From an uncultured Flavobacteriaceae bacterium (GTDB lineage Bacteria > Bacteroidota > Bacteroidia > Flavobacteriales > Flavobacteriaceae), in contig CANMSI010000004.1 of assembly GCA_947500575.1 (NCBI GenBank), positions 344,778 through 408,777 on the forward strand: 64,000 nt of DNA, given 5' to 3'. The notes under the pieces were generated by a model. It did not search any database. It was not told where the DNA came from and saw nothing but the letters and a program-made list of their open reading frames with translations. The translations under genes and the position numbers were made by a program. Below, piece after piece: positions 1 to 39,091 of this stretch; within the stretch, counting starts at the first letter, position 1, and every line of letters begins with the position of its first letter.

Positions 1-3000
1 CATCATTTACATTTAAGGTAATGCTATTCCCATTTTCAATGGATATATCACCTGGGGTTCCATCGGTAGATAAATCTTGATCATCTGTGGCAGGATCTCC
101 GGCCGGACCTTGTGGACCTGCAGGACCTTGTGGACCTACTGGACCTTGATCTCCATCAGGACCTTGGTTTCCTACGGGACCTTGTGGACCTTGGTTACCG
201 TCAGGACCTTGATTTCCTACTGGACCCTGTGGACCTGCAACTCCATCCGGACCTTGGTTCCCATCAGGACCTTGATTTCCTATGGGACCTTGGTTTCCAT
301 CGGGGCCTGTTGCACCAGCTGGACCTTGATTTCCTACTGGACCTTGGTTTCCATCAGGACCTTGATTTCCTACTGGGCCTTGAAGACCTACTGGACCTTG
401 GTTACCGTCAGGACCTTGATTACCATCGGGGCCTTGATTTCCTACTGGACCTTGTGGACCTACAGCACCATCTGGGCCTTGGTTACCCACTGGACCTTGG
501 TTACCATCAGGACCTTGGTTACCGTCAGGACCTTGGTTCCCATCGGGGCCTTGATTTCCTACTGGGCCTTGATTACCATCCGGGCCTTGCGCTCCGTCAG
601 GACCTTGATTTCCTACTGGACCTTGATTCCCATCGGGACCTTGCGCTCCGTCAGGACCTTGATTTCCTACTGGGCCTTGAAGACCTACTGGACCTTGGTT
701 ACCGTCAGGACCTTGATTACCATCGGGGCCTTGTGGACCTACAGCACCATCTGGGCCTTGATTTCCTACTGGACCTTGCGCTCCGTCAGGACCTTGATTT
801 CCTATTGGACCCTGTGGACCTACAGCACCATCTGGGCCTTGGTTACCCACTGGACCTTGGTTACCATCAGGGCCTTGATTACCGTCAGGACCTTGGTTCC
901 CATCGGGGCCTTGATTTCCTACTGGACCTTGTGGACCTACAGCACCATCTGGGCCTTGGTTACCCACTGGACCTTGGTTACCATCAGGGCCTTGGTTACC
1001 TACTGGTCCTTGATTCCCATCGGGACCTTGATTCCCATCAGGGCCTTGATTTCCTACTGGGCCTTGAAGACCTACTGGACCTTGGTTACCGTCAGGACCT
1101 TGATTCCCATCGGGACCTTGCGCTCCGTCAGGACCTTGATTTCCTATTGGACCCTGTGGACCTACAGCACCATCTGGGCCTTGGTTACCCACTGGACCTT
1201 GGTTACCATCAGGACCTTGGTTCCCATCAGGACCTTGATTTCCTACTGGACCTTGGTTACCGTCAGGACCTTGATTACCATCGGGGCCTTGATTTCCTAC
1301 TGGACCTTGTGGACCTACAGCACCATCTAGGCCTTGGTTTCCGTCAGGACCTTGGTTACCCACTGGACCTTGATTCCCATCGGGACCTTGCGCTCCGTCA
1401 GGACCTTGATTTCCTATTGGACCCTGTGGACCTACAGCACCATCTGGGCCTTGGTTACCCACTGGACCTTGGTTACCATCAGGACCTTGGTTCCCATCGG
1501 GGCCTTGATTTCCTACTGGACCTTGATTTCCATCCGGACCTTGGTTCCCATCGGGGCCTTGCGCTCCGTCAGGACCTTGATTTCCTATTGGACCCTGTGG
1601 ACCTACAGCACCATCTGGGCCTTGGTTACCTACTGGACCTTGATTCCCATCGGGACCTTGGTTTCCTACTGGACCTTGTGGACCTACAGCACCATCCGGG
1701 CCTTGATTTCCTACTGGGCCTTGAAGACCAACTGGACCTTGGTTACCGTCAGGACCTTGGTTACCATCGGGACCTTGATTTCCTATTGGGCCTTGAAGAC
1801 CTACTGGACCTTGATTACCGTCAGGACCTTGGTTACCATCGGGGCCTTGCGCTCCGTCAGGACCTTGATTTCCTATTGGACCTTGGTTTCCTACTGGACC
1901 CTGTGGACCTACAGCACCATCCGGGCCTTGGTTACCCACTGGACCTTGGTTACCATCAGGACCTTGGTTCCCATCGGGGCCTTGATTTCCTACTGGACCT
2001 TGATTTCCATCCGGACCTTGCGCTCCGTCAGGACCTTGGTTTCCTACTGGACCCTGTGGACCTACAGCACCATCTGGGCCTTGGTTTCCATCAGGACCTT
2101 GGTTACCCACTGGACCTTGGTTCCCATCAGGACCTTGATTACCGTCAGGACCTTGATTTCCTATTGGACCCTGTGGACCTACAGCTCCATCTGGGCCTTG
2201 GTTACCCACTGGACCTTGGTTACCATCGGGGCCTTGGTTACCCACTGGACCTTGATTCCCATCGGGACCTTGCGCTCCGTCAGGACCTTGATTTCCTATT
2301 GGACCCTGTGGACCTACAGCTCCATCTGGGCCTTGGTTACCCACTGGACCTTGAAGACCAACTGGACCTTGGTTACCGTCAGGACCTTGGTTACCATCGG
2401 GACCTTGATTTCCTATTGGACCCTGTGGACCTACAGCACCATCGGGGCCTTGATTTCCTACTGGACCTTGATTACCGTCAGGACCTTGATTTCCTATTGG
2501 ACCTTGTGGACCTACAGCACCATCTGGGCCTTGGTTACCATCTGGGCCTTGGTTACCATCGGGGCCTTGGTTTCCTACTGGACCTTGCGCTCCGTCAGGA
2601 CCTTGGTTTCCTACTGGACCCTGTGGACCTACAGCACCATCCGGGCCTTGGTTACCCACTGGACCTTGGTTACCATCAGGACCTTGGTTCCCATCGGGGC
2701 CTTGATTTCCTACTGGACCTTGATTTCCATCCGGACCTTGCGCTCCGTCAGGACCTTGATTTCCTACTGGACCCTGTGGACCTACAGCACCATCTGGGCC
2801 TTGGTTCCCATCGGGACCTTGATTTCCTATTGGACCCTGTGGACCTACAGCACCATCTGGGCCTTGATTTCCTACTGGGCCTTGAAGACCAACTGGACCT
2901 TGGTTACCGTCAGGACCTTGGTTCCCATCGGGACCTTGATTTCCTATTGGACCCTGTGGACCTACAGCACCATCTGGGCCTTGGTTTCCTACTGGACCTT

Positions 3001-5935
3001 GATTACCATCCGGACCTTGCGCTCCGTCAGGACCTTGATTTCCTATTGGACCTTGTGGACCTACAGCACCATCTGGGCCTTGGTTTCCATCAGGACCTTG
3101 GTTACCCACTGGACCTTGGTTCCCATCGGGACCTTGATTACCGTCAGGACCTTGGTTTCCTACTGGTCCTTGCGGACCTGGAGGACCTTGAGGACCTACA
3201 GCTCCACCAGCAGCAATATCTGCTAAAGGCACGCTTACCGTATTCCCATCTTCTATGGAAATTTCTAAATCGGTTCCGCTTACCTGAAAGTCTCTTAAAA
3301 GTTGATCATCTGTACCTACAAAGGTGGTCATGGAACCATCTTCACTCGTAAAAGTGAATGTTCCGTCTGTATTGTCTGTTAATGTAGTTACTGTATTATT
3401 CGTATCTATGGTTACAGCTGCACCTGAATCGTCTGTAATTGTATACGTGCCATCCGTATTATCTACCACGGTAGAACGTCTTGCATCAAAATCAGTAACA
3501 GTACCATTCTCACTCGTATATCTAAAAGTACCATCTCCATTATTTACCAAGGTAGTAATGGTTTCTGCAATCGCTACTGAAGCCACATTTAAATAGAGTC
3601 CGCCATCAGTACCCGCTACAATATCATTATTAGAATCACCACTAATTAAACTAATAGTCACTGGAGTTCCTGTCTCATCCGTATAGGTAAAAGTAGCATC
3701 TCCATTGTCTACCAAAGTAGAAATGGAGGTATCACTAATCGTTGTGGTATTCCCTGCCGCATCCGTGAAGGTGTAGGTGCCATCGGCATTGTCTACTAGG
3801 TTTACAGTACCTGCTGCTGTATTGATCTCATCGATCGCATCTTGTACATTCGTTGCCGTTAAGCCCGATGTTGCATTGTCATATGGATTGGCACTTGCAT
3901 TGGTATCAATGACCTGGGTAGCGCCTGTTTCATCTGTATAGGTATAGGTACCATCCGCATTGTCTACCAAAGTAGAAATGGAGGTATCACTAATCGTTGT
4001 GGTATTCCCTGCCGCATCCGTGAAGGTATAGGTACCATCGGCATTGTCTACTAGGTTTACAGTGCCTGCTGCTGCATTGATCTCATCGATCGCATCTTGT
4101 ACATTCGTTGCCGTTAAGCCCGATGTTGCATTGTCATATGGATTGGCACTTGCATTGGTATCTATTAGCTGGGTTGCGCCTGTCTCATCTGTATAGGTAT
4201 ACGTTCCATCTGCATTGTCTACCAAGGTAGAAATGGAAGTATCACTAATAGTAGTCGTATTGCCTGCTGCATCTGTAAAGGTGTAGGTGCCATCGGCATT
4301 GTCTACTAGGTTTACAGTGCCTGCTGCTGCATTGATCTCATCGATCGCATCTTGTACATTCGTTGCCGTTAAGCCCGATGTGGTATTGTCATATGGGTTG
4401 GCACTTGCATTGGTATCTATTAGCTGGGTAGCGCCTGTCTCATCTGTATAGGTATACGTTCCATCTGCATTGTCTACTAAAGTAGAAATGGAAGTATCAC
4501 TAATGGTCGTTGTATTGCCTGCTGCATCTGTAAAGGTGTAGGTACCATCGGCATTATCTACTAGGTTTACAGTACCGGCTGCTGCATTGATCTCATCGAT
4601 CGCATCTTGTACATTCGTTGCCGTTAAGCCCGATGTTGTATTGTCATATGGGTTGGCACTTGCATTGGTATCTATTAGCTGGGTTGCGCCTGTCTCATCT
4701 GTATAGGTATAAGTTCCATCTGCATTGTCTACCAAGGTAGAAATAGAGGTATCACTAATCGTTGTGGTATTCCCTGCCGCATCCGTGAAGGTATAGGTAC
4801 CATCGGCATTATCTACCAGATTTACTGTACCTGCTGCTGCATTGATCTCATCGATCGCATCTTGTACATTCGTTGCCGTTAAGCCCGATGTTGCATTGTC
4901 ATATGGATTGGCACTTGCATTGGTATCAATGACCTGGGTAGCGCCTGTTTCATCTGTATAGGTATACGTTCCATCGGCATTGTCTACCAAGGTAGAAATG
5001 GAAGTATCACTAATGGTCGTTGTATTTCCTGCTGCATCCGTAAAGGTGTAGGTGCCATCGGCATTGTCTACTAGGTTTACAGTGCCTGCTGCTGCATTGA
5101 TCTCATCGATCGCATCTTGTACATTCGTTGCCGTTAAGCCCGATGTTGTATTGTCATATGGATTGGCACTTGCGTTGGTATCAATGACCTGGGTTGCGCC
5201 TGTCTCATCTGTATAGGTATAGGTACCATCAGCATTGTCTACCAAGGTAGAAATGGAAGTATCACTAATGGTCGTTGTATTTCCTGCTGCATCTGTAAAG
5301 GTGTAGGTGCCATCAGCATTGTCTACTAGGTTTACAGTGCCTGCTGCTGCATTGATCTCATCGATCGCATCTTGTACATTTGTTGCCGTTAAGCCTGATG
5401 TGGTATTGTTGTAATTTACCTCTGCTGCGGTCTGATCATCCGTACCAACAAAAATAATTGGTGAACCATTGCCATTATCAAAAGTAAAAGTACCATCACC
5501 ATTATTGGTAAGAGATGCTTTACTTATTGTCTGAGGAGTTCCATCTTCGTTTGTGTATGTAATTGTACCGTCGTTGTTATCCACCAAATTAGTAACCGTA
5601 TCAAATAAGGAAGAAAGGTCTACAGTTTGTGTACTTCCGCCAACCAAAGTAAGGGTCAATTGACCCGTTCCAGTATCATAACTGAAATCTTGAATTTGCG
5701 GATTTACCCCTGAAGTCAACTCCCAGGAATCTCCGTCCCAATAAAAGATATTTCCTGTATTGGTATTTACATAGATATCACCTGTGTCCGCTCCTGCGGG
5801 CGTAGTTGACCCTGGTGTTGTTACGGCGGTTCCGCTTAACACCTCACAATTACATTGGTCTTCTAATGTGACGGTGGTTTGCGAATATGCAAATCCCGAT
5901 ATTAGAAAAAACAGTAACAAAATCCTTTTGCTCAT
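1..5935 (-). CDS. Giant secreted collagen-like repeat protein; 3-prime end lies outside the window (at least 1978 codons visible)
   Basis: A minus-strand ATG at 5935-5933 gives MSKRILLLFFLISGFAYSQ, a signal peptide. Hand translation of 5935-5700, 5460-5280, 3340-3120 and 330-1 stays in one open frame. No stop occurs before position 1, which explains its absence from the ORF track. Plus-strand ORFs at 77-3596 and 5784-6032 are antisense artefacts. Confidence 0.85.
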   Translation of the reverse strand, partial: MSKRILLLFFLISGFAYSQTTVTLEDQCNCEVLSGTAVTTPGSTTPAGADTGDIYVNTNTGNIFYWDGDSWELTSGVNPQIQDFSYDTGTGQLTLTLVGGSTQTVDLSSLFDTVTNLVDNNDGTITYTNEDGTPQTISKASLTNNGDGTFTFDNGNGSPIIFVGTDDQTAAEVNYNNTTSGLTATNVQDAIDEINAAAGTVNLVDNADGTYTFTDAAGNTTTISDTSISTLVDNADGTYTYTDETGATQVIDTNASANPYDNTTSGLTATNVQDAIDEINAAAGTVNLVDNADGTYTFTDAAGNTTTISDTSISTLVDNADGTYTYTDETGATQVIDTNASANPYDNATSGLTATNVQDAIDEINAAAGTVNLVDNADGTYTFTDAAGNTTTISDTSISTLVDNADGTYTYTDETGATQLIDTNASANPYDNTTSGLTATNVQDAIDEINAAAGTVNLVDNADGTYTFTDAAGNTTTISDTSISTLVDNADGTYTYTDETGATQLIDTNASANPYDNTTSGLTATNVQDAIDEINAAAGTVNLVDNADGTYTFTDAAGNTTTISDTSISTLVDNADGTYTYTDETGATQLIDTNASANPYDNATSGLTATNVQDAIDEINAAAGTVNLVDNADGTYTFTDAAGNTTTISDTSISTLVDNADGTYTYTDETGATQVIDTNASANPYDNATSGLTATNVQDAIDEINTAAGTVNLVDNADGTYTFTDAAGNTTTISDTSISTLVDNGDATFTYTDETGTPVTISLISGDSNNDIVAGTDGGLYLNVASVAIAETITTLVNNGDGTFRYTSENGTVTDFDARRSTVVDNTDGTYTITDDSGAAVTIDTNNTVTTLTDNTDGTFTFTSEDGSMTTFVGTDDQLLRDFQVSGTDLEISIEDGNTVSVPLADIAAGGAVGPQGPPGPQGPVGNQGPDGNQGPDGNQGPVGNQGPDGNQGPDGAVGPQGPIGNQGPDGAQGPDGNQGPVGNQGPDGAVGPQGPIGNQGPDGNQGPDGNQGPVGLQGPVGNQGPDGAVGPQGPIGNQGPDGNQGPDGAVGPQGPVGNQGPDGAQGPDGNQGPVGNQGPDGNQGPDGNQGPVGNQGPDGAVGPQGPVGNQGPDGAQGPVGNQGPDGNQGPDGNQGPDGAVGPQGPIGNQGPDGNQGPVGNQGPDGAVGPQGPIGNQGPDGNQGPDGNQGPVGLQGPVGNQGPDGAVGPQGPIGNQGPDGAQGPDGNQGPVGNQGPDGNQGPVGNQGPDGAVGPQGPIGNQGPDGNQGPDGNQGPVGNQGPDGNQGPDGAVGPQGPVGNQGPDGAQGPDGNQGPVGNQGPDGNQGPDGNQGPVGNQGPDGAVGPQGPVGNQGPIGNQGPDGAQGPDGNQGPDGNQGPVGLQGPIGNQGPDGNQGPDGNQGPVGLQGPVGNQGPDGAVGPQGPVGNQGPDGNQGPVGNQGPDGAVGPQGPIGNQGPDGAQGPDGNQGPDGNQGPVGNQGPDGNQGPDGNQGPVGNQGPDGAVGPQGPIGNQGPDGAQGPDGNQGPVGNQGPDGNQGLDGAVGPQGPVGNQGPDGNQGPDGNQGPVGNQGPDGNQGPDGNQGPVGNQGPDGAVGPQGPIGNQGPDGAQGPDGNQGPDGNQGPVGLQGPVGNQGPDGNQGPDGNQGPVGNQGPDGNQGPVGNQGPDGAVGPQGPVGNQGPDGNQGPDGNQGPDGNQGPVGNQGPDGAVGPQGPIGNQGPDGAQGPVGNQGPDGAVGPQGPDGNQGPDGNQGPVGLQGPVGNQGPDGAQGPDGNQGPVGNQGPDGAQGPDGNQGPVGNQGPDGNQGPDGNQGPDGNQGPVGNQGPDGAVGPQGPVGNQGPDGNQGPDGNQGPVGLQGPVGNQGPDGNQGPVGNQGPAGATGPDGNQGPIGNQGPDGNQGPDGVAGPQGPVGNQGPDGNQGPQGPVGNQGPDGDQGPVGPQGPAGPQGPAGDPATDDQDLSTDGTPGDISIENGNSITLNVND
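92..3205 (-). repeat. Collagen-type Gly-X-Y triplet-repeat coding region, 346 triplets (1038 aa), inside the giant CDS
   Basis: Minus-strand codons at 3205, 3196 ... 100 are all GGN. In the codon-aligned antisense ORFs (77..1330, 1334..3226) every third residue is S/T/P/A (NCC) without exception. Direct reads give GAVGPQGPPGPQGPVGNQGPDG ... GPAGPQGPAGDP. Confidence 0.9.
3630..5413 (-). repeat. About seven tandem coding repeats with an exact 255-bp (85-aa) period inside the giant CDS
   Basis: The marker gatctcatcgatcgcatcttgtacatt starts at 3824, 4079, 4334, 4589, 4844, 5099 and 5354, each step exactly 255 bp. The unit reads YDNTTSGLTATNVQDAIDEINAAAGTVNLVDNADGTYTFTDAAGNTTTISDTSISTLVDNADGTYTYTDETGATQVIDTNASANP. 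Copies are nearly identical at DNA level, and the lowest-coordinate copy diverges at its end. Confidence 0.9.
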
Positions 5936-6443: not shown

Positions 6444-9400
6444 TTAATTTTTGTTCACTCTATAGGTAATTTTACGATTCGTAATCACGGTATTTACTTT
6501 TACATTTAGGATGGCAGTATTGGAGATTTCGGTATCACACAAATAGGCTGTATTGGATACGATTACTCTATACTGACTTCCATCATCTGCGGTTTGTGCA
6601 TTCGTAATAACTAAGCTTGCCGTGTTCGTACCACTATGAATACCGGTATCAGTAAGGTTTACCCAAATACTACCGTTGAATCGTTGCCATTGATAACTAT
6701 CCGTATTCGTTGCTACCACAGTAAAACTTCCATTACATCCAGGACATATCGTAATGTCTATCGGTTGGGTTGTAATTGCTGGTGCTGTACCCGCTTCTCT
6801 AAAATCAAAAACGCTATTGGAATTTCCATCTGCTGGGGGCGTATATCCATCTGTATTACCTGTTACTACCCCAGTTGTAGTGCTGGTTCCGGTACCTGCT
6901 AATTCCCCTGAAATACTTCCACTCTCTGTATATCCTGCTTCAATAACATCTTCACAACCATCCGCATCACTATCCAATTCTACATAATCCCTATTTCCAT
7001 CCGTATCGGAATCTCTAACGGTATAATTAATAGTAGTACTGTCTTCCTGTCCCGATGCCTGAACGGCGTCTGGAACCCCGTCTAAGCCTACTGCTCCAGT
7101 AAGTCTTCCGGCCGTATGAGCAAGATCGTGTCCGGCTTCTACTACATCATAAATACCATCATTATCACTATCTAAATCTTTATCGTCTGTAACGCCATCT
7201 AGGTCTGTATCCACACCAGCTGTCCAAATAATCGCTTGCACCAGCAGATCTTCCCCTGCAGCATTAAATCCGCCCGTATTGTTTGTATGGGGTACAATGG
7301 TCCTTCTTCCTGGCGCAATGCCTGCGTCCATGGCATCTCCCCTTTCCCATACGGCAATTGCTACCTGTCCATTGGGATGTTCTGCTAATACCGTTCCTGA
7401 AGCCAAATTATTGGCATGGAACGCTGCATCTCCAATATCATAATTTCCTAGGGACAGACCGTTGGTAATAGGATGTGTATTATTCAAAATATTGACAAAA
7501 GCGGTATTACTATTCCCTCCTGTATTAGCACCTAATATATCATCATACAAGGCATTTTCACTGGTAATTACACCACTTGCTGTAGTTGTTAAATTGGCCA
7601 CATTGGCCAAAGCATCACCACTAAAAACATCTTCAAAAATAAAAACAACATCATAGGCATTGGCATCTCCGCCTACATTGTCATCCACCACTGTTACGGT
7701 ATAGCCTAATGCGATTAATTTATCAATCACATTTTGCTCATAGGTCTCAGCTGCATTCTGAGTAACCCATAAAACAGCACGAGGGCTTTCTATAGAATCT
7801 AGAATACCGTCATTATCATCATCTTCATCACAAACATCATTAATACCATCTCCATCTGTATCCGTTCCACTAGGATCTGCACAAGGCTCGTAAATAGTCA
7901 CTGTAGCCGTATCACTTTTACCCAAAGCGGGGCATATAGCAACGGTAGAATCTGTGATGGTATAGTCGAAAGTAGTTCCTGGAAACAGCGTTCCTGCGGA
8001 ATAGGTGTAGGTTACCAAGCCTAAATCGGCATCGTCAATGACCACAGTTCCTATGGCAGGTTGTACCACACTATCTATAAAAAAGTCTTCCCCGTCGGGT
8101 TCCGTATCATTATCGAACAAACTGATTTGTACGGAAACGGTTGTACCAATAGGAACGGTTACAAAGTCGTCTACTGCATCTGGGGCATTGATATTTTCTA
8201 CTATCTCTGCGTCTGTGGTAGATAGATCGTAGTGATTGGTTCCTGGAATGGTACTTGGTGTTGCTACAATAGTAGCAATAAGCCTCGAAAAACCCCCAGG
8301 CGCAGATGCATCATAAAAATTAGGATAACGTACTTCTATTATATACGTCTCATTTTCCCCAAGAGGAAGCCCAAAATGCACTTCTTCTGGACTTTGGGTT
8401 CCATGCCCAAAAACCCCATTTACTTGTCGGAGTCCACTGACTATATTTCCTTCACAATCCTTGATTATGACATTGGTTCCTATGGCAACCCGTTCGGGTA
8501 TTCCACCGGTAGAACCATCGGCACCTCTATCTTCAGTTACATCTATTAAAAGATGGTTATTTCTATTTGCTGCGGGTAGGTTATTGATAAAAAGTTGATT
8601 GGAATTATTGTTAATGTTCATATAAATATCCAAATCTCCATCATCGTCAATGTCGATCATAGTGGTACCTTCTCCATTTCGATTGTTAAAGGTTTCGGCG
8701 TCCAAAGTAAAACTCATGGCCGCTCCACTTCCAATAACCCCTGGTGCTGGGGTAGGACTATTTAGTTGGTTGATAAATAGATAACTTCTATTATCACCTA
8801 CAAAAAGAATATCAATATCCCCATCATTGTCTATATCACCCCCTGCAAGCGCATCAATATCATTAGAAGAACTTCCACTATCTGTATTAGAAGGCTGTGG
8901 TAAACCGGGAAAGGTAGCTGCTCCTAAGGGAGTCCAGATCCCAGGGCCATCATTACGAAAGATTTGGTTTAAACCATTTTCTGTCCAGACTGCATCTAAA
9001 TCCCCATCATTATCCAAATCCCATAGACCATTTCCACCCTTATTTCCGTTATCTGCTTGGGCTAAATCTGACCCATTTGTGAAAGTACCTCCTTGGTTTA
9101 GGAAGAAATCATTTTCATTTCGTTTACGCATAAAGATATCTACCCAGCCATCGTCATTCACATCCGCAGCGGAACCGTAATCTCCGTCTGTTGCAAATTG
9201 ATTCAGACCAAATTCTACTACTCCAGAACCATTACCAGGGGTAATATGCGTAAATAAAGCGTTTGGGGCGGGGTTAACAACGGTATGAGTTATATGATTT
9301 ATATAGTTATTACGCAATAATTCTATCCCGTAATTATGACTATCGAAAAAGATATCTAAATCACCATCTCCTTCAAAATCAAAAAAACCAGCACCTTCTA

Positions 9401-9923
9401 CATTCAAAGGATTAATGGTAATGGTTTCATTATTATTCTCACCCACCGTTAGCGGGGTGGTACCACCAATACCATCACCAAAAGTACCATCTGCATTTTG
9501 TATAAATATTTGCATAGCAACTACATTGGAATTGGTTCCGGAAGAAGTCATCATAAAATCTGGCCTCCCATCTCCATTCACATCTCCCCAAGCTGCTTGG
9601 CGTTCTGCACGGTCTCCAGAGATCATTCCAGGTGCTAAAGTAGTTTGCACATTGGTAAAAGTTCCATTGCCATTATTACGCATTAAATAATTACGTTGGG
9701 AGGTACTATTTCTATTGATAAGGATATCGATATCACCATCGCCATCAAAATCGGACCATGCGTGCCCCCCATCCTTGCCGCCACCTAAGTTCAGATTATA
9801 GGAAGCCGCACTTTCTGTAAAAGTGGTTTGGGCATATAGTCCAGTAGTACATACTAGAAGAAAATACAAGAGTGTAGAACCGATCTTGTTCTTGGGGAAC
9901 TTCAATGGTATAGTTACTTGCAT
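6444..9923 (-). CDS. Secreted FG-GAP/VCBS repeat protein (ASPIC/UnbV, CRTAC1-like) with cadherin-like, thrombospondin-type-3-like Ca-binding and C-terminal Ig-like modules; ends in VITNRKITYRVNKN
   Basis: 1159-aa ORF with an ATG start. It has a signal-peptide-like N-terminus (LLYFLLVCTTGLYAQ). It carries repeated DxDGDGDxDI motifs (DFDGDGDIDILI, GDVNGDGRPDFMM, WDLDNDGDLDAVW, IDIDDDGDLDIYM). A UnbV-like segment reads [57 protein letters not shown] repeats are also present. Confidence 0.85.
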   Translation of the reverse strand: MQVTIPLKFPKNKIGSTLLYFLLVCTTGLYAQTTFTESAASYNLNLGGGKDGGHAWSDFDGDGDIDILINRNSTSQRNYLMRNNGNGTFTNVQTTLAPGMISGDRAERQAAWGDVNGDGRPDFMMTSSGTNSNVVAMQIFIQNADGTFGDGIGGTTPLTVGENNNETITINPLNVEGAGFFDFEGDGDLDIFFDSHNYGIELLRNNYINHITHTVVNPAPNALFTHITPGNGSGVVEFGLNQFATDGDYGSAADVNDDGWVDIFMRKRNENDFFLNQGGTFTNGSDLAQADNGNKGGNGLWDLDNDGDLDAVWTENGLNQIFRNDGPGIWTPLGAATFPGLPQPSNTDSGSSSNDIDALAGGDIDNDGDIDILFVGDNRSYLFINQLNSPTPAPGVIGSGAAMSFTLDAETFNNRNGEGTTMIDIDDDGDLDIYMNINNNSNQLFINNLPAANRNNHLLIDVTEDRGADGSTGGIPERVAIGTNVIIKDCEGNIVSGLRQVNGVFGHGTQSPEEVHFGLPLGENETYIIEVRYPNFYDASAPGGFSRLIATIVATPSTIPGTNHYDLSTTDAEIVENINAPDAVDDFVTVPIGTTVSVQISLFDNDTEPDGEDFFIDSVVQPAIGTVVIDDADLGLVTYTYSAGTLFPGTTFDYTITDSTVAICPALGKSDTATVTIYEPCADPSGTDTDGDGINDVCDEDDDNDGILDSIESPRAVLWVTQNAAETYEQNVIDKLIALGYTVTVVDDNVGGDANAYDVVFIFEDVFSGDALANVANLTTTASGVITSENALYDDILGANTGGNSNTAFVNILNNTHPITNGLSLGNYDIGDAAFHANNLASGTVLAEHPNGQVAIAVWERGDAMDAGIAPGRRTIVPHTNNTGGFNAAGEDLLVQAIIWTAGVDTDLDGVTDDKDLDSDNDGIYDVVEAGHDLAHTAGRLTGAVGLDGVPDAVQASGQEDSTTINYTVRDSDTDGNRDYVELDSDADGCEDVIEAGYTESGSISGELAGTGTSTTTGVVTGNTDGYTPPADGNSNSVFDFREAGTAPAITTQPIDITICPGCNGSFTVVATNTDSYQWQRFNGSIWVNLTDTGIHSGTNTASLVITNAQTADDGSQYRVIVSNTAYLCDTEISNTAILNVKVNTVITNRKITYRVNKN

Positions 9924-10156: not shown

Positions 10157-13100
10157 TTAATTTGGATTTACGCGATACGTAATTCTGCGGTTGGTAATTA
10201 CGGTTCGCACTCGAACAATACTTAAAGGAGAAAACTCAGAAGTAGAATTGGTAATAGTGGCCGTGGATGTAATAAATTCTCCCAAAGCTACTGCCACTGG
10301 TAAAGAAATCGAAAATTGGAACATATTGGTATTGTCTGTATTACCATCTGCGTCCGTATACGAAGATACGCCTGCATTGGTATCGGATGCACTTCCCTCC
10401 ACAACAGTTCCTAAATATACTTGTCCTTCGCCATAATCTGTAGATTGTCCAAATTGGTTGTCGCCTGCGGTAGCAGTTCCTTCATTAACATCTGTTAAAA
10501 ACACTTCAATAGTTGCTCCGGGTCTTGACCAACCGCTAATTACTAGATTTGCCCCTAATTTATAGGCTGATGTAATAATAGGAAAATTCAAGGATCCATT
10601 AGGTCCATTATCGGCATCACCACTATCATTTAGTGTTACCCCATCACCTATTTCGCCAGATTGATCAATATCTATACCTAAACCACCGTTAGCGAATATG
10701 GAATTTTGAGAGATGAGATTCCCAGTGAAATTTCCATTTCCTAAAACTATGCCCGCTCCCCCATTATTGGATATAATGTTTTGGGCAATTGTAGAATTGT
10801 TTCCATCTAATAAAATTCCTGAGTTTTCAACATTTCCATTGCAAAGCCCTCCATTTTGACCAGAGTTGACAATTGTATTTTCTAAAATACTGGCATTCCC
10901 TGAAAAGGCATCTGCGTCTATCCCCAAGGAAGCTGCATTCTCAATTAGGTTTTGTTGAATTACAACACCCAATCCATTTTGTAATAAAATATTATCATTG
11001 CAGGCACCATTCCCATTATTTGTTATCTGATTATTCTGAATAATGGAAGCTGTTCCTCCATTCACAACTATTCCTGCATCTGTATTGGTAGCGATATAAT
11101 TACCATTAATATTTACGGTGCCATCCGTAATTTCAACACCAAAATCTACATTCCCACCATTGGTTCCATTGGCATTTACGCCTAAGAAACTATTGGCAAT
11201 TGTAGCAGATCCACCGTCAATTCTGACAGCAGCATTATTTCCTCCAAACACAGAAACATTCCTAATCACCGTATTGGTTCCTGAATTTTTAAGAACATCT
11301 CCCGTTCCTCTATGAATTTGAATTTCAGGGCGATTATAATTGGGTAATACATTGGCAGAAGTTCCTACCGTAGTTCCGCCTGCTCCTATAGTGCCCCCGT
11401 TGGTATCTCCAGAGTAGGCCGTTTGTGTTCTTCCATCGATGACCGTATTAGTGCCTGTAATAGAAGTTAATGAATCCCCATCAGGAATATCGATATCTAG
11501 GTATCCCCCAATATAATTACTATCTGCTGTTCTACCTAGTGGGTCTCCGCTTACAGGAATCATAAAAATAGAGGTGTCTTCTGTGGCTGCTGGGTCAAAA
11601 ATTCCATTGGCTTCAATATCTAGTGTTGCTTGATCTAAATTATTACTATTTACAATAAACTGTTCTAAAGACCCCTGACCATCTTCATTGGTATTCACAA
11701 TGGTATTGAAATTAAATCCAAAATCGAGCCCTACCACTCCCTCTGAGGTAATGGTAACATTAGACACACTTTGCGCATTATTTAAGGTACCGGCATTTGA
11801 GTCTTGTCCGGCAGGGTTTGCACCACCCACTTCTCCAATAATATTAGCAAAGCCGCCTGCAGTAGCATAATTTCTTCTATAGGTTTGAACGGGTATACAA
11901 GTATTGCAGGTAGTTCCACCACCTCTTGTAGAGCGAATGGTGTTATTTACTACACGGACACTAAAGCTTCCATTTGCCATTCCGCCCATGGTATAATCTC
12001 CAGAGGTATCTGTAGTAACAGATTCTATAAACGTATTTGTATTATCATATAATTCGACTGAAACACCTTCAATACCCACGCCATTTGAGGTTATTAGATC
12101 CCTACCTACTCCACCACCATAATTTACGTCTTCAAAAATATTTCCAACAATTAGATTACTGGGAACTTTAACCAAAACCATATTCGCTATTACATAATCC
12201 TGTCCTGCATTTACTCCTACCGTAATTTCTGAGTCGGCTGCAGCTATATAGGGTGAAATATCATATGTATCTAGATCTACACCATAGGAATTACTAATAT
12301 TAACCACAGGTGCAACCGTGTTATCATAAATGGTAGAATTATAAGCATTGTTTCCGGTTTGCCCACCATCTCCCGTTAAAGTGAAAGAGTTACCGGCTTG
12401 ATTGGTTACAATGAGGGATTCTCCATTCGGATTTGTTGTTCCAGCACTATTACCATCTAAAGTAGCATCTCCTTCCCAGGATAAAACTGTTGTCTTTGCT
12501 CCAACGGAACCAATGGCAAAAAAACCATCCAGCGTATAGGAATTGGAGGTATTGCTTTCACCTTTAAATCCATGATACATGTTTACGGATACCGCAGGCA
12601 GATTGGGGTCTTCATAAAATACGATTAAAGACCAACCTCCTAGAACCGTATTAGTTGAACAATAGGTAAAAACGTTATCGGTATTATCTATATCCAAATC
12701 TGCAAAATCATAAGTATTATTAGAGGGGTTCGTTATACCTTCAATAATCGTGGTTACATCCGAAAGCATGCCAAAAAAAACGTTTCCTTGTACAGAGGAA
12801 GAATACACCAGCTCTGCGCTAATTGATTGTCCTTCAAAAGTAACTTCAGTATCAGGAATCTGATTGGAATGCGCCCAAAGTAAAAATGCCTTCTTTACTG
12901 TGGCAGTAGCAGGAATAGTACTTGTAAGACCTGTTGCTGTTGAACTTGTAACAATTGAACAAGGGTTGACTGTATTGCTTTGATCCCTTAATGAACCACC
13001 AGCAACGGCATAATCAAAATAACCATTAAATTCATCAAATAGCGTAAGTGGTACTTCACTAAGAATCACCTCATCATCTGTAATAGTTACTGTTGCAGTA

Positions 13101-13960
13101 TCTGTAATATCTACAGATGGGTCAGATACCGCAGTAAATGCAATGGTGAATGTCTCATCTAATTCGTAGAAGCTGTCATCCAAAATAGTGATTACAATAT
13201 TATCGGTATCACCAGTTGTTCCATTAAAATTTAACACGCCTCCTGAGATTCCTGTATAATCTACATTTTCATCTGCCGATCCTGCACTTGTAGCATATGT
13301 GGCAGTAAAAGATCCTGTCGCAGAACCCCCATCATGGGTGACAACTAAAGTAACCGTCCCATCGTCTTCAGCAACACTAATATCTTCTACTATCAATACA
13401 GGAGGGAAAATAGCGGAAAACTGAACATTATCTATGGTAATTACTTCTCCATTATTCCAATTACCACTACCAGTGCCAAAGGCAATTGCGGAATTTGCGG
13501 AAATCTCATTGGTCGTCAATGTATGTGTAATACTACCCGTGTTGGTGGTATTTATATTGTCTATTACTTCAAAAAAACCAGTACTCGTGTCAAAAAGATA
13601 TACTGCTAAAGTTTCATTACCTCTTGAAGTAGCATCGTAATCCAACGTCAAGGTAACCGAAGTAGCTCCTGATAGGTCTAAATTTCGGATTATAAACCGA
13701 CCGTCAATATCACTAAAAACAAGTTCCCCACCACTTATAAAAATTCTACCACCGTTTGGACTTCCATCGTCATTACTTTCCTGCCAGTTTGTACCAAAAT
13801 TGCTATTTCCATCATTATTCGCATAAGAAACGGTTCCAAATTGGTCTAAATAGATATTTTGCCCAACAACAAAAGTTGTAAACAAAAAAAATATCAGTAT
13901 TGTTAGTCTTTGGTTTGGCATAAGTTGGAATCCAAAGTTCTCTAGATACATCAGTATCAT
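10157..13960 (-). CDS. Secreted adhesin-like protein: N-terminal beta-sandwich, Calx-beta, shared ~300-aa domain, SdrD-B/CarboxypepD_reg-like module, right-handed beta-helix repeats; ends in VITNRRITYRVNPN
   Basis: 1267-aa ORF. The ATG at 13960 or the internal ATG at 13921 (MPNQRLTILIFFLFTTFVVGQ, a better signal peptide) could be the start. Calx-beta signature: VAEDDGTVTLVVT...DYTGISGGVLNFNGTTGDTDNIVITILDDSFYELDETFTI. Beta-helix-like repeats: NTVIRNVSVFGGNNAAVRIDGGSATIANSFLG. Confidence 0.85.
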   Translation of the reverse strand: MILMYLENFGFQLMPNQRLTILIFFLFTTFVVGQNIYLDQFGTVSYANNDGNSNFGTNWQESNDDGSPNGGRIFISGGELVFSDIDGRFIIRNLDLSGATSVTLTLDYDATSRGNETLAVYLFDTSTGFFEVIDNINTTNTGSITHTLTTNEISANSAIAFGTGSGNWNNGEVITIDNVQFSAIFPPVLIVEDISVAEDDGTVTLVVTHDGGSATGSFTATYATSAGSADENVDYTGISGGVLNFNGTTGDTDNIVITILDDSFYELDETFTIAFTAVSDPSVDITDTATVTITDDEVILSEVPLTLFDEFNGYFDYAVAGGSLRDQSNTVNPCSIVTSSTATGLTSTIPATATVKKAFLLWAHSNQIPDTEVTFEGQSISAELVYSSSVQGNVFFGMLSDVTTIIEGITNPSNNTYDFADLDIDNTDNVFTYCSTNTVLGGWSLIVFYEDPNLPAVSVNMYHGFKGESNTSNSYTLDGFFAIGSVGAKTTVLSWEGDATLDGNSAGTTNPNGESLIVTNQAGNSFTLTGDGGQTGNNAYNSTIYDNTVAPVVNISNSYGVDLDTYDISPYIAAADSEITVGVNAGQDYVIANMVLVKVPSNLIVGNIFEDVNYGGGVGRDLITSNGVGIEGVSVELYDNTNTFIESVTTDTSGDYTMGGMANGSFSVRVVNNTIRSTRGGGTTCNTCIPVQTYRRNYATAGGFANIIGEVGGANPAGQDSNAGTLNNAQSVSNVTITSEGVVGLDFGFNFNTIVNTNEDGQGSLEQFIVNSNNLDQATLDIEANGIFDPAATEDTSIFMIPVSGDPLGRTADSNYIGGYLDIDIPDGDSLTSITGTNTVIDGRTQTAYSGDTNGGTIGAGGTTVGTSANVLPNYNRPEIQIHRGTGDVLKNSGTNTVIRNVSVFGGNNAAVRIDGGSATIANSFLGVNANGTNGGNVDFGVEITDGTVNINGNYIATNTDAGIVVNGGTASIIQNNQITNNGNGACNDNILLQNGLGVVIQQNLIENAASLGIDADAFSGNASILENTIVNSGQNGGLCNGNVENSGILLDGNNSTIAQNIISNNGGAGIVLGNGNFTGNLISQNSIFANGGLGIDIDQSGEIGDGVTLNDSGDADNGPNGSLNFPIITSAYKLGANLVISGWSRPGATIEVFLTDVNEGTATAGDNQFGQSTDYGEGQVYLGTVVEGSASDTNAGVSSYTDADGNTDNTNMFQFSISLPVAVALGEFITSTATITNSTSEFSPLSIVRVRTVITNRRITYRVNPN

Positions 13961-14011
13961 AGAATTAACTTTTTAAATGTATCTCAAAACTAAGGTTTAA
14001 ATAATCCTCAA

Positions 14012-14030
14012 ACTAAATAATGTTGTGAAG
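14012..14030. promoter_or_regulatory. Conserved upstream box ACTAAATAATGTTGTGAAG (copy upstream of 10157..13960)
   Basis: The 19 nt are identical to 17515-17533. A second conserved stretch follows (ATTTG..AAGTAAAC..ATAAAA). Confidence 0.45.
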
Positions 14031-14094
14031 TGGTCAATTTGCGAAGTAAACAGATAAAATAATAAGGTATAAGCAATTACTACACGCTATAACG

Positions 14095-17463: not shown

Positions 17464-17514
17464 GCTTGCAATTTGGGGGTTGTACCTCAAAACTAACGCA
17501 TATTAACCGCGATC

Positions 17515-21406: not shown

Positions 21407-21417
21407 CTATTTTTAAT

Positions 21418-22368
21418 TTAGAAGAAACGAGGTGATACTAATTTTTCAAAAGACTTAACCAATTCAAATCTTAAGAATACTTCAAAGGAACCATCATTAA
21501 ACTGGGTTCCTCCTAATGCGGTAGTCTCCCTGTCATAGGCAAGACCTAACATCATCTGATCAGATATTTGAAATCCTAACAAACCACTTACGGCAGCATC
21601 CCAACGATAAGCTGCACCAAACATAAATTTGTCATTAAACAAAAAATTAGCAGAAACATCTACTTGTAATGGTGCTCCACCTACTGCTTTCAGAAGTGCT
21701 GCAGGTTTGAATTTAAAATTATTATTTAAATCGAATACGTAACCAGTTATCAAATAAAGGTTAATGCGTTCTCTTGCCAAGAAATTAACTCCTCCAGTGC
21801 TATTTTGGTTATCAAAATATTCTGTTTCCAAAATATTTGGTGCAGATAAACCTGCGTAAAACTTCTTACTGTGGTAGTATACCCCTAACCCAAAATTTGG
21901 TGAAAATTGATTATCAATATTATTTCCGTCTATGGCTTCACTATCGAAGTTTCGAAGTTGTGAAAAATCTAGATTTAAGATGCTACCTCCAACTTTTAAT
22001 CCAAAAGATAGTTTGGCATTTTCGGAAACATCTAAGCTATAAGACACTACAGCATCAATATCTGTCTCTTGTACGGTACCTTCACCAATATTGTCATTAA
22101 TTACGGAAAGACCATAGCCCACTTTGCTTTCTCGTATGGGCGAATGTAAGTTTAAAGTGAAGGACTCTGGAGCGCCAGCTAAGCCTACCCATTGAGATCT
22201 GTATAATGCGGCTGCACTAAACTGACCACGAGAACCTGCGTAGGCAGGGTTAACACTAAGGGTGTTGAACATGTATTGGGTGTACTGCGCATCTTGTTGC
22301 GCACTGACAGTTTGTAGCACTGCCATGCATAGAAATATGCATGGCAGTAATCCGCTTTTTTTTATCAT
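21418..22368 (-). CDS. PorP/SprF-family type IX secretion system membrane protein
   Basis: 316-aa ORF with the N-terminal signature QQDAQYTQYMFNTLSVNPAYAGS. Beta-barrel-like alternating pattern throughout. It lies 17 bp downstream of a type-B-CTD gene. Confidence 0.9.
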   Translation of the reverse strand: MIKKSGLLPCIFLCMAVLQTVSAQQDAQYTQYMFNTLSVNPAYAGSRGQFSAAALYRSQWVGLAGAPESFTLNLHSPIRESKVGYGLSVINDNIGEGTVQETDIDAVVSYSLDVSENAKLSFGLKVGGSILNLDFSQLRNFDSEAIDGNNIDNQFSPNFGLGVYYHSKKFYAGLSAPNILETEYFDNQNSTGGVNFLARERINLYLITGYVFDLNNNFKFKPAALLKAVGGAPLQVDVSANFLFNDKFMFGAAYRWDAAVSGLLGFQISDQMMLGLAYDRETTALGGTQFNDGSFEVFLRFELVKSFEKLVSPRFF

Positions 22369-22385
22369 TTTATAGTGTTCAAAGT

Positions 22386-38882: not shown

Positions 38883-38949
38883 AAGGTGAAATATTTACTA
38901 TTAATTTTATTCAAGGATATTCAGCTTTCACTTTTCATCCTTCTACAAG

Positions 38950-39022: not shown

Positions 39023-39091
39023 TTCTATTTACATCAAAAGGTATCCCGCTGTAGCGGGACACCCCTGATGCAAAATTATATACTTTACGTA

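What the first reader, a model, noticed from the sequence alone, without database searches (positions are those of the whole stretch)
92..3205. Bacterial collagen-like domain of animal-fibrillar-collagen length: 346 uninterrupted Gly-X-Y triplets
On the minus strand every third codon from 3205 down to 92 is GGN. In the codon-aligned antisense ORFs of the track, every third residue is S/T/P/A (NCC) at all 346 positions, and direct reads confirm the pattern (GAVGPQGPPGPQGPVGNQGPDG ... GPVGPQGPAGPQGPAGDP). Only about eight triplet types are used (GPQ, GPV/GPI, GNQ, GPD, GAV, GAQ, GLQ). In the stretches read, Pro sits mostly in X and Y is mostly Gln/Asp/Val/Ile. At 1038 residues the domain matches the length class of the vertebrate fibrillar collagen triple helix (about 1014 residues in human alpha1(I)). 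Characterised bacterial collagen-like proteins such as Scl1/Scl2 and BclA have only tens of triplets. The domain is bracketed by similar motifs (GTDLEISIEDGNTVSV before, GTPGDISIENGNSITL after). The DNA consists of nested near-identical 9-nt and longer units, so it is prone to recombination and to assembly error.
Basis: partly seen in the sequence, partly recalled or inferred. Interest (0 to 1): 0.75.

Follow-up and report, generated by a model that had tools for sequence, protein, structure and literature searches.

The report
Very long flavobacterial collagen-like surface protein
A marine flavobacterium encodes a 2339-residue secreted protein whose middle is 346 unbroken Gly-X-Y collagen triplets, probably a roughly 300 nm stalk of a cell-surface fibre; this is real but not unique, because relatives in public genomes carry 612 and 749 unbroken triplets.

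Summary
On the minus strand, window 3205..92 encodes exactly 346 uninterrupted Gly-X-Y triplets. They lie inside one open frame that starts at 5935 and runs off the window start.

The window is 100% identical to NCBI contig CANLEJ010000002.1 over 19,923 compared bases. That contig gives the full gene: 2339 aa, made of a Sec signal peptide, an N-terminal head, 85-aa repeats, the collagen array and a 381-aa C-terminal region.

The last ~115-150 aa form a domain conserved in hundreds of marine Flavobacteriaceae proteins. In 79 of 80 related loci the gene is followed by a conserved type-B-CTD T9SS protein. In 73 of 80 a PorP/SprF gene follows as well.

Best reading: a Bacteroidota cell-surface fibre with a collagen stalk of variable length, linked to type IX secretion.

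The "exceptional length" claim does not hold.
- Family members have 749 triplets (Aquimarina sp. SS2-1, complete genome), 612, 266 and 261.
- Trichodesmium (383 triplets) was published in 2008.
- The literature cites prokaryotic collagen-like chains of up to 2000 triplets.

The DNA repeats are degenerate rather than near-identical; the longest exact repeat is 161 nt.

One unusual feature is that the array has no Lys, Arg or Glu and 95 Asp.

Verdict: a new member of a known kind, of moderate interest.

The parts
5882..5935 (-). Start codon (ATG 5935; NCBI calls a GTG 30 nt upstream, at 5965) and Sec signal peptide MSKRILLLFFLISGFAYS, followed by Gln at +1
   Evidence: Translation. The n-h-c layout and A-x-S|Q site were judged by eye. 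Gln at +1 fits the Bacteroidetes 'Q-rule' (my own knowledge, not tested).
5711..5878 (-). Conserved N-terminal head (TTVTLEDQCNCEVLSG...IYVNTNTGNIFYWDGDSWELTS), with the only two Cys of the protein
   Evidence: The same head is found in orthologues L013 (Euzebyella marina) and L015 (Aggregatimonas MAG). The head search gave 218 hits, of which nearly all of the 120 listed are partial proteins from marine Flavobacteriaceae.
3669..5409 (-). 6.8 tandem copies of a 255-nt (85-aa) repeat (NPYDN.TSGLTATNVQDAIDEINAAAGTVNLVDNADGTYTFTD...), 93% identical at DNA level
   Evidence: TRF and the translation. There are weak, repeat-driven Pfam DUF903 and YgdI/YgdR matches and weak PHROG tail-fibre matches.
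3206..3668 (-). Further DN.DGT(F/Y)T(F/Y)T beta-type repeats and the pre-collagen motif GTDLEISIEDGNTVSVPLADIAAG
92..3205 (-). Collagen-like array of 346 uninterrupted Gly-X-Y triplets (1038 aa). The basic unit is the hexapeptide GNQGP(D/V), punctuated 21 times by GAVGPQGP(I/V/P/D). No Lys, Arg or Glu; 95 Asp.
2..91 (-). Conserved C-terminal collagen junction ATDDQDLSTDGTPGDISIENGNSITLNVND. The gene continues 351 codons beyond the window start.
   Evidence: The junction GDP|A(T/S)DDQTLS...ISISGGN.I.LNVNDADS is conserved across genera while the arrays differ. The rest of the gene is read from L001:13959-20978.
6444..9923 (-). Upstream neighbour: 1159-aa FG-GAP/cadherin-like surface protein
   Evidence: Pfam. 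It shares a C-terminal Ig-like domain and the tail VITNRKITYRVNKN with three other neighbours.
10157..17490 (-). Two Calx-beta surface proteins (1267 aa with a beta-helix; 1131 aa with DUF7933)
   Evidence: Pfam. A homologue of the 1267-aa protein lies directly downstream of the collagen gene in Aquimarina loci.
17599..19239 (-). 546-aa protein with no Pfam domain that carries the same C-terminal tail
19469..25163 (-). T9SS triad: 925-aa type-B-CTD (CHU_C) protein, PorP/SprF (316 aa) and a PorE-like OmpA-family protein (645 aa)
   Evidence: Pfam and NCBIfam PorE / CHU_0125_OmpA. The layout matches the PorE-PorP-type B cargo complex of PMC9143113.

Best explanation
The array is the central stalk of a large secreted cell-surface fibre or adhesin of a marine Flavobacteriaceae bacterium.

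The protein has five parts: a Sec signal peptide, a small conserved N-terminal head, about 830 aa of beta-type repeats, 346 Gly-X-Y triplets, and a 381-aa C-terminal region. That region ends in a domain conserved across the family.

Inferred mechanism:
- Three chains associate at the conserved C-terminal junction and domain.
- The Gly-X-Y array zips into a collagen triple helix about 297 nm long (1038 x 0.286 nm).
- This rod holds the head and repeats away from the cell.

The gene is co-oriented with, and 16 nt upstream of, a conserved 672-aa protein with a T9SS type-B C-terminal domain. A PorP/SprF gene follows 10 nt after that. The most likely route and anchor is therefore the type IX secretion system, with the fibre's C-terminal domain docking on the type-B protein/PorP complex or acting as an unrecognised T9SS signal.

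Stalk length is a free variable in the family, from 0 to more than 3300 aa. It evolves by expansion and contraction of short units.

Shown: coding frame, domain layout, family membership, synteny, length variation.
Inferred: trimer and triple helix, surface location, T9SS dependence, adhesive function.
For: Coding and architecture
- One open frame carries a signal peptide and conserved termini.
- PF01391 scores 491 bits.
- Gly is invariant at 346 positions, while its third codon position varies freely (1.51 bits). 40 nucleotide variants encode the 15 triplet types. This indicates selection on the protein.
- Codon usage resembles that of rpoB/rpoC.

Family
- The C-terminal domain gives 454 protein hits and 475 confirmed stretches in GTDB species representatives. 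All named organisms among the listed hits and loci are marine Flavobacteriaceae.
- 36 columns are invariant over the last 115 aa.

Synteny
- A homologue of the 672-aa type-B-CTD protein (47-86% identical over the CTD, 69-79% over the full length in the best hits) follows in 79/80 loci. PorP/SprF follows in 73/80.
- Type-B cargo bind cognate PorP/SprF proteins for secretion and anchorage (PMC9143113; PMC12618676).
- A second type-B + PorP + PorE triad lies 14 kb upstream.

Stalk variability
- Family members range from 216-233-aa proteins with no stalk, to open frames over 3500 aa with non-collagen repeats, to 749 collagen triplets.

Conserved junction
- The collagen C-terminal junction is conserved across genera although the arrays differ.

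Fold
- The C-terminal-domain model has pLDDT 77.
- Its Foldseek hits are mostly trimeric fibres: T7 gp17, phage tailspikes, collagen XV/XVIII trimerisation domains and phage tail fibres. Only one hit, in the viral library, reaches E <= 0.001, and its TM-score is below 0.2.
Against: - No recognised trimerisation domain was found, and no fold match was convincing: none reached E <= 0.001 against the PDB, and the single viral hit at E 4.9e-4 has a TM-score below 0.2.
- The C-terminal domain matches neither the T9SS type A nor the type B model. A profile-profile comparison with the neighbouring type-B CTDs gives a probability of 0.4%. T9SS dependence therefore rests on synteny alone.
- The array has no Lys, Arg or Glu and a net charge of -95 per chain. 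It lacks the salt bridges proposed as a general collagen folding code (PMC11923368), and three such chains should repel each other unless cations screen them.
- GPD and GNQ are below-average triplets on host-guest stability scales (from memory; not computed here).
- No expression, proteomic or microscopy data exist for any family member (paper searches found none).
- The exact triplet number comes from a single assembly.
Confidence: 0.6

Rival explanations
1. Assembly artefact in length. The gene is real, but the 346-triplet count, or the lack of interruption, results from mis-resolved repeats in a short-read assembly.
For: - 55 of 80 related loci are cut by a contig or locus end inside this gene.
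- Nearly all N- and C-terminal homologues in the protein database are annotated 'partial'.
- Sibling accessions from what looks like the same project (CANM.../CANL... 'isolate n-nnn.fasta, NODE_x') are named like SPAdes contigs. The source contig may therefore also be short-read derived; this is an inference.
- The exact 2339-aa protein is absent from the 15-billion-protein collection.
Against: - The array is degenerate at DNA level: the longest exact repeat is 161 nt and 97% of 127-mers are unique. That is within reach of paired-end assembly.
- The frame stays open for 3.1 kb. All 21 marker-delimited blocks contain an odd number of triplets.
- Orthologues in chromosome-level or complete assemblies carry 266 and 749 triplets, so long arrays are genuine in this family.
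Confidence: 0.15
2. The array is not a triple helix. It would be a single-chain, extended, highly acidic polyproline-II-like or disordered spacer (an entropic bristle or cation-binding brush).
For: - Net charge is -95, with no basic residues and no salt bridges.
- No trimerisation domain was identified.
- Aquimarina relatives have almost no Pro (GAT/GST/GNT).
- A rigid 300 nm rod is hard to reconcile with folding in the periplasm before export (inference).
Against: - Zero interruptions of Gly at every third residue over 1038 residues. The same holds in orthologues whose X/Y residues are entirely different. Such strict periodicity is the specific requirement of triple-helix core packing; a disordered spacer does not need it.
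- 54% of X positions are Pro.
Confidence: 0.15
3. Phage-derived or horizontally acquired collagen: either a prophage tail-fibre gene, or a transfer from animals as was proposed for Trichodesmium.
For: - Weak PHROG tail-fibre matches to the 'TATNVQDAIDEI' motif.
- Weak Foldseek hits to phage tail fibres.
- The length matches the animal fibrillar class.
Against: - The context is chromosomal housekeeping genes (rpoBC, tuf, ribosomal proteins, tRNAs, trp operon), and no phage structural genes were found.
- Synteny with T9SS genes is conserved across many genera.
- No fibrillar-collagen propeptide domains were found.
- Composition is unlike animal collagen: one GPP, no K or R.
- The array is built from a hexapeptide unit, and orthologues use different units. 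This points to in-situ repeat expansion.
Confidence: 0.03

Closest known systems
Streptococcal Scl1/Scl2 and Legionella Lcl collagen-like adhesins
   Same: Secreted bacterial surface proteins with a head, a collagen stalk and a cell anchor, and no hydroxyproline. The NCBIfam SclB, SclA and Lcl models hit the array. Repeat number is polymorphic in Lcl (PMC6460258, listed).
   Different: Those have tens of triplets, rely on charged residues and are LPXTG-anchored (Scl). Here there are 346 triplets, no K/R/E, no LPXTG, a Bacteroidota outer-membrane setting and a different conserved C-terminal domain. The HMM hits reflect the Gly-X-Y repeat only.
Bacillus BclA / Pasteuria collagen-like exosporium fibres
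   Same: A collagen stalk with a C-terminal globular domain that trimerises, highly variable triplet number and a hair-like surface nap (my own knowledge).
   Different: BclA is Thr-rich, glycosylated and at most about 90 triplets, with a TNF/C1q-like C-terminal domain. No such fold match was obtained here.
Trichodesmium erythraeum collagen-like protein (383 uninterrupted GXY)
   Same: A marine bacterium with an uninterrupted collagen array at or above animal fibrillar length (PMC2443231).
   Different: It comes from a different phylum and has different flanking domains. That paper argued for transfer from eukaryotes, whereas here the evidence favours local repeat expansion. No sequence comparison with it was run.
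Flavobacterium johnsoniae SprB/SprF (giant repetitive T9SS type-B adhesin with its cognate PorP-like protein)
   Same: A giant repetitive surface filament gene lying directly upstream of a PorP/SprF gene in a Bacteroidota genome. Type-B proteins are anchored through PorP-like proteins (PMC9143113, PMC12618676).
   Different: The collagen protein itself lacks a type-B CTD. The type-B CTD sits on the separate 672-aa protein encoded between it and PorP/SprF.
Same-family homologues in Aquimarina sp. SS2-1 (L028) and A. addita (L026), Euzebyella marina (L013) and an Aggregatimonas MAG (L015)
   Same: They share the C-terminal domain and the downstream type-B-CTD/PorP module. L013 and L015 also share the N-terminal head and the collagen junction. 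K+R is 0-0.1% of residues in all four arrays.
   Different: The arrays have 749, 612, 261 and 266 triplets, built from other units (GAT/GST; GAQ/GAT/GIQ; GPQ/GAD/GPA; GAD/GPQ/GIQ). The Aquimarina arrays are almost Pro-free.

Membership tests
Collagen triple-helix repeat proteins (Pfam PF01391; bacterial collagen-like proteins) | Gly at every third residue over many consecutive triplets | tested here: met
   346 consecutive triplets with no interruption
Collagen triple-helix repeat proteins (Pfam PF01391; bacterial collagen-like proteins) | Score above the Pfam gathering threshold | tested here: met
   491.1 bits against a cut-off of 27.2
Collagen triple-helix repeat proteins (Pfam PF01391; bacterial collagen-like proteins) | An adjacent domain that trimerises and sets the chain register | tested here: inconclusive
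   The C-terminal junction and domain are conserved. There is no Pfam or NCBIfam match. Fold hits to trimeric fibres and to collagen XV/XVIII trimerisation domains are weak and local only.
Collagen triple-helix repeat proteins (Pfam PF01391; bacterial collagen-like proteins) | Actual triple-helix formation (CD signature, protease resistance, trimer mass) | not testable with these tools
   Needs recombinant protein.
Scl1/Scl2 LPXTG-anchored streptococcal adhesins (NF038329/NF038330) | C-terminal LPXTG sortase signal and N-terminal variable trimerisation domain | tested here: not met
   The HMM scores exceed their cut-offs (694.8 against 325), but the matched stretches lie in the collagen array. 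The protein ends ...NSLINVVFVVK with no LPXTG, and the genome context is Bacteroidota (T9SS genes and a Bacteroidete trp leader).
T9SS cargo proteins | C-terminal type A (TIGR04183) or type B (TIGR04131 / PF13585) sorting domain | tested here: not met
   No hit at E <= 1 on the 381-aa C-terminal region. hhalign against the type-B CTD alignment gives a probability of 0.4%.
T9SS cargo proteins | N-terminal Sec signal peptide | tested here: met
   MSKRILLLFFLISGFAYS|Q, judged by inspection. No predictor was available.
T9SS cargo proteins | Genetic linkage to a cognate PorP/SprF gene | tested here: met
   PorP/SprF lies two genes downstream in L001 and in 73/80 family loci.
Flavobacteriaceae head-stalk-CTD family (precomputed Pfam PF26696 on homologues) | Conserved C-terminal domain ...AIAPITSKAARIFYPPSI...NSLINVVFVVK | tested here: met
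   454 protein hits. Invariant columns are listed. The local Pfam copy lacks PF26696, so the family's name could not be read.
Flavobacteriaceae head-stalk-CTD family (precomputed Pfam PF26696 on homologues) | Followed by a conserved Big_9/cadherin + type-B-CTD protein and PorP/SprF | tested here: met
   79/80 and 73/80 loci respectively. Gaps are 16 and 10 nt in L001.
Animal fibrillar collagens | Fibrillar C-propeptide (COLFI) and N-propeptide; GPP/Hyp-rich; Lys/Arg-containing triplets | tested here: not met
   No COLFI or other animal collagen domains. One GPP triplet and 0 Lys/Arg.
Phage collagen-like tail fibres | Location in a phage or prophage next to structural genes | tested here: not met
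   The neighbours are T9SS and surface proteins and housekeeping genes. PHROG hits are weak and confined to a short motif.

The most novel reading that the evidence does not exclude
These genes may define an uncharacterised class of type-IX-secretion-linked, probably trimeric, surface fibres in marine Flavobacteriaceae.
- The stalk module would be interchangeable: none, beta-type repeats, or a collagen helix of up to 749 triplets (about 640 nm).
- The conserved C-terminal domain would be a new anchoring or secretion signal that works through the adjacent type-B-CTD protein/PorP pair.
- The Lys/Arg-free, Asp-rich arrays would fold and keep register without any salt bridges, perhaps with seawater Ca2+/Mg2+. 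That would be a natural counter-example to the proposed salt-bridge folding code, and to the proposed ~344-triplet length ceiling for uninterrupted collagen helices.
Probability: 0.3. Interest if true: 0.6.

Novelty: new member of a known kind. Interest (0 to 1): 0.35.

Why it matters
- It corrects a common impression, based on Scl and BclA, that bacterial collagens are short. A whole family in marine Flavobacteriaceae carries uninterrupted arrays of 260-750 triplets.
- These genes are almost always broken in draft assemblies, so their abundance and length are systematically under-reported.
- The Lys/Arg-free acidic arrays offer natural substrates for testing how long, highly repetitive triple helices nucleate, keep register and stay stable without hydroxyproline or salt bridges.
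- They could also serve as scaffolds for recombinant collagen materials.
- The conserved link to a type-B-CTD/PorP module gives a testable hypothesis for how very long fibres are exported and anchored by the T9SS.

Tried and rejected
- Exact look-up of the full protein in the 15-billion-protein collection failed twice, with the V- and M-start versions. No strain comparison of triplet number was therefore possible.
- The look-up of encoding contigs hid two further contigs that carry the same neighbour gene.
I used the 80%-identical P0001 instead. Only its last ~150 aa were modelled with confidence, and Foldseek found nothing against the PDB.
- A domain-only model (P0055, pLDDT 77) gave no PDB hit at E <= 0.001, and one viral hit at E 4.9e-4 with a TM-score below 0.2. 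I treat the recurring trimeric-fibre hits as a lead only.
- Pfam, NCBIfam and PHROGs found nothing on the 381-aa C-terminal region. PF26696 is not in the local Pfam copy.
- hhalign of the family CTD against type-B CTDs was negative, so I do not file the protein as a type-B cargo.
- The 1.84-billion-representative search ranks by similarity to this query, not by array length. It missed the 612- and 749-triplet relatives, so it cannot serve as a census. Among its top 150, one protein has a run of at least 346 triplets and three have at least 300.
- Paper searches linking collagen-like proteins with Flavobacteria or the T9SS returned nothing relevant.
- The DUF903, YgdI/YgdR, Gag_spuma_N and HxsA4 HMM hits are compositional or repeat artefacts.
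- The sigma-70 promoter scan was not used, because Bacteroidota promoters differ. A single TAnnTTTG motif lies at window 6238, 303 nt upstream of the ATG, and is not decisive.
Full report
**1. Observation**

No minus-strand ORF is listed by the ORF listing across window 1-6000, because the real one runs off the window. Translating the minus strand gives a single open stretch from 6028 to 2. It contains MSKRILLLFFLISGFAYSQ... (ATG at 5935) and an unbroken Gly-X-Y run.

The regex count was 345 triplets from 3196. The preceding GAV triplet makes 346, which is exactly window 3205..92.

- Eight triplet types cover 337 of 346: GNQ 115, GPD 92, GPV 50, GPQ 26, GAV 21, GPI 14, GAQ 12, GLQ 7.
- X is 54% Pro and 33% Asn. 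Y is Gln, Asp, Val or Ile.
- Pfam Collagen scores 491 bits.
- The three long + strand ORFs are antisense mirror images.

One point is overstated. The DNA is a degenerate array, not a set of near-identical units.

- TRF gives 64-84% matches at periods from 18 to 495 nt.
- 40 different 9-mers encode the 15 triplet types.
- The longest exact repeat is 161 nt, and only 2.9% of 127-mers recur.
- The Gly third codon position carries 1.51 bits of entropy, while positions 1-2 never vary.

This pattern is what selection on the protein would produce. It is not what a recent amplification or an assembler stutter would produce.

**2. The whole gene and its source**

The neighbouring 1159-aa protein is found on NCBI contig CANLEJ010000002.1 (GCA_947489695.1, 1.11 Mb). 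The window matches that contig at 19,923 of 19,923 compared bases. The contig supplies the missing 3' end.

The gene encodes 2339 aa from the called GTG start. Its parts are:
- a signal peptide;
- a 56-aa head holding the only two Cys;
- 6.8 copies of an 85-aa repeat at 93% DNA identity;
- further DN.DGT.T.T repeats;
- the collagen array (residues 921-1958);
- a 381-aa C-terminal region ending ...NSLINVVFVVK.

The protein is extremely acidic: 287 Asp+Glu against 20 Lys+Arg. The array has 95 Asp and no Lys, Arg or Glu. It is essentially (GNQGP[D/V])n, punctuated 21 times by GAVGPQGP(I/V/P/D), and every block has an odd number of triplets.

**3. Context**

The window is ordinary Bacteroidota chromosome. 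It holds rpoB, rpoC, prfC, L10, L1, nusG, tuf, five tRNAs and a Bacteroidete trp leader. No phage genes were found.

Everything from 25163 down to the window start is a co-oriented surface-protein island:
- a type-B-CTD protein (925 aa), PorP/SprF and a PorE-like OmpA protein;
- four large proteins with FG-GAP, Calx-beta or beta-helix domains, or no known domain;
- the collagen gene.

Downstream, 16 nt after its stop, comes a 672-aa Big_9/cadherin protein with a type-B CTD. A PorP/SprF gene follows 10 nt later.

**4. Family**

The C-terminal region finds 454 proteins. Its conserved peptides find 475 confirmed stretches in GTDB species representatives. All named organisms among the listed hits and loci are marine Flavobacteriaceae, including Cellulophaga, Aquimarina, Zobellia, Maribacter, Muriicola, Eudoraea, Robiginitalea, Euzebyella and Arenibacter.

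The last 115 aa have 36 invariant columns.

- In 79 of 80 loci the gene is followed by a homologue of the 672-aa type-B-CTD protein. In 73 of 80 a PorP/SprF gene follows.
- In Aquimarina, a homologue of the window's 1267-aa Calx-beta/beta-helix protein sits between them. The island's components therefore travel together.
- The N-terminal head finds 218 further proteins. Nearly all of those listed are annotated 'partial' and are 120-365 aa long.
- 55 of 80 loci are cut by a contig or locus end inside the gene.

The family is common but is systematically fragmented in draft assemblies.

**5. Length in perspective**

Where the gene is complete, the stalk varies enormously.
- Some loci encode 216-233-aa proteins with no stalk. 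P0055, a 215-aa homologue, is just signal peptide, head motif and C-terminal domain.
- Others have open frames over 3500 aa of non-collagen repeats.
- Uninterrupted collagen runs reach 749 triplets (Aquimarina sp. SS2-1, complete chromosome NZ_CP170199.1), 612 (A. addita JCM 17106), 266 (Aggregatimonas MAG chromosome OZ250162.1) and 261 (Euzebyella marina).

The last two share the window protein's head and collagen junction, so they are orthologues. Their arrays use different units (GAD/GPQ/GIQ and GPQ/GAD/GPA). This points to rapid in-situ repeat turnover rather than inheritance or import of a fixed sequence.

In the literature, Trichodesmium's 383 uninterrupted triplets were reported in 2008, together with a proposed ceiling near 344 for other organisms (PMC2443231). 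A 2025 paper, citing a 2023 review, states that prokaryotic collagen-like chains reach about 2000 triplets (PMC11923368).

A search of 1.84 billion cluster representatives with the array gave 71,226 hits at E <= 1e-3. Among the 150 most similar, only one has a run of 346 or more (377 triplets) and three have 300 or more. That list is ranked by similarity, not by length. It missed the Aquimarina proteins, so it is not a census.

Conclusion: 346 uninterrupted triplets is at the long end but is neither unique nor the record, even within its own family.

**6. How it probably works**

Strict Gly periodicity is maintained over 1038 residues. It is also maintained in orthologues whose X and Y residues have been completely replaced. 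That is the specific requirement of triple-helix packing, so I infer a homotrimeric collagen rod of about 297 nm (0.286 nm per residue, established value).

The sequence GP.GP.GDP|A(T/S)DDQTLS...ISISGGN.I.LNVNDADS at the C-terminal end of the array is conserved across genera while the arrays are not. This makes it the best candidate for the nucleation and registration site. That fits the C-to-N zipper folding described for collagens (PMC11923368).

The C-terminal domain could be modelled (pLDDT 77).
- It has no PDB neighbour at E <= 0.001. One viral hit reaches E 4.9e-4 with a TM-score below 0.2.
- The weak hits are mostly trimeric fibres: the T7 gp17 tip, CBA120/HK620/phiAB6 tailspikes, collagen XV/XVIII trimerisation domains and phage tail fibres.
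- This is a lead, not a test.

The conserved operon with a type-B-CTD protein and PorP/SprF, plus the published finding that type-B proteins are secreted through and anchored on cognate PorP-like proteins (PMC9143113, PMC12618676), make a T9SS-linked surface location the most likely one.

However, the collagen protein's own C-terminal domain is neither a type A nor a type B CTD. Whether it is a new signal or docks on the 672-aa protein remains open.

The adhesive or aggregative function is inferred from the architecture and from the neighbours (FG-GAP, Calx-beta, cadherin-like).

**7. Rivals**

(a) Mis-assembled length. This is plausible, given how often this gene breaks assemblies and that the source may be a short-read assembly (inferred from sibling accessions). 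Against it stand the degenerate DNA, the intact frame and the long arrays in complete genomes.

(b) A non-helical acidic spacer. This is supported by the lack of salt bridges, the -95 charge and the missing trimerisation domain. It does not explain the perfect Gly periodicity.

(c) Phage or animal origin. This is contradicted by context, synteny, composition and the hexapeptide build-up.

**8. Novelty and score**

This is a new, uncharacterised member of a known kind: bacterial collagen-like surface proteins with a head-stalk-anchor layout. No paper in the searched library links collagen-like proteins to Flavobacteria or the T9SS.

The interesting residue is at the family level:
- interchangeable stalks of extreme and variable length;
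- a conserved, unclassified C-terminal domain tied to a type-B-CTD/PorP module;
- long Lys/Arg-free arrays that cannot use the proposed salt-bridge clamps.

Interest 0.35.

Noticed in passing
window 6444-6530, 10157-10240, 14095-14180, 17599-17680 (3' ends of four minus-strand genes): The four large surface proteins upstream of the collagen gene (1159, 1267, 1131 and 546 aa) all end with the same tail, (T/S)VITNR(R/K)ITYRVN(K/P)(N/S). In three of them an Ig-like domain with a QWQ...NG..W motif precedes it. No Pfam or NCBIfam model covers the tail. It looks like an unrecognised C-terminal sorting or anchoring signal. The same C-terminal region also occurs just upstream of the family gene in other loci.
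   Followed up: partly
window 19469-25163 (-): A complete type-B-CTD cargo (925 aa) + PorP/SprF (316 aa) + PorE-like OmpA protein (645 aa) triad. It mirrors the PorE-PorP-PG1035 complex described in P. gingivalis. The C-terminal 308 aa of the 925-aa protein are 61% identical to the 672-aa protein downstream of the collagen gene.
   Followed up: partly
L028:2693-10459 (Aquimarina sp. SS2-1, NZ_CP170199.1) and L026:4016-11020 (Aquimarina addita): Family members with 749 and 612 uninterrupted Gly-X-Y triplets. They are almost free of Pro and of Lys/Arg. The 749-triplet array is built from GAT/GST/GNT and the 612-triplet array from GAQ/GAT/GIQ/GET, with 89 Glu. If triple-helical they would be about 640 and 525 nm long. 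They are more extreme than the window's array and, as far as the searches showed, uncharacterised.
   Followed up: partly
loci L002-L081; proteins P0001-P0120 and P0271-P0390: This gene family is systematically broken in draft assemblies. 55 of 80 loci are cut by a contig or locus end inside the gene, and almost all protein-database homologues are annotated 'partial'. Its repeat content is therefore invisible in most genomes.
   Followed up: yes
window 3669-5409 (-): 6.8 tandem copies of a 255-nt unit at 93% identity, encoding an 85-aa repeat with the motif SGLTATNVQDAIDEINAA. This is much more homogeneous than the collagen array, which suggests recent amplification or gene conversion. The motif gives weak PHROG tail-fibre and baseplate hits.
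   Followed up: partly
proteins P0124, P0127, P0130, P0192, P0210: A different set of very long collagen-like proteins (uninterrupted runs of 377, 317, 248, 178 and 155 triplets). They share a C-terminal ending F(N/D)W(W/L/I)I(I/V)(N/Q), which suggests another family of giant collagen proteins with its own C-terminal signal.
   Followed up: no
window 52641-52757 (+): A Bacteroidete tryptophan peptide leader RNA (Rfam RF01692, 62 bits) lies in front of ORFs that are presumably a trp operon. This is an ordinary feature, and it confirms the Bacteroidota origin.
   Followed up: no
window 41424-42374 (-), next to tRNA cluster 38949-40975: A tyrosine recombinase (Phage_integrase + SAM-like N domain) is encoded beside a cluster of five tRNA genes and tuf. 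It could be a housekeeping XerC/D-type enzyme or the remnant of an integrated element. It was not examined further.
   Followed up: no
window 77-3351 (+): Three long + strand ORFs (417, 1079 and 630 aa) overlap the collagen array. They are antisense artefacts of the GGN-periodic coding strand and should not be annotated as genes.
   Followed up: yes
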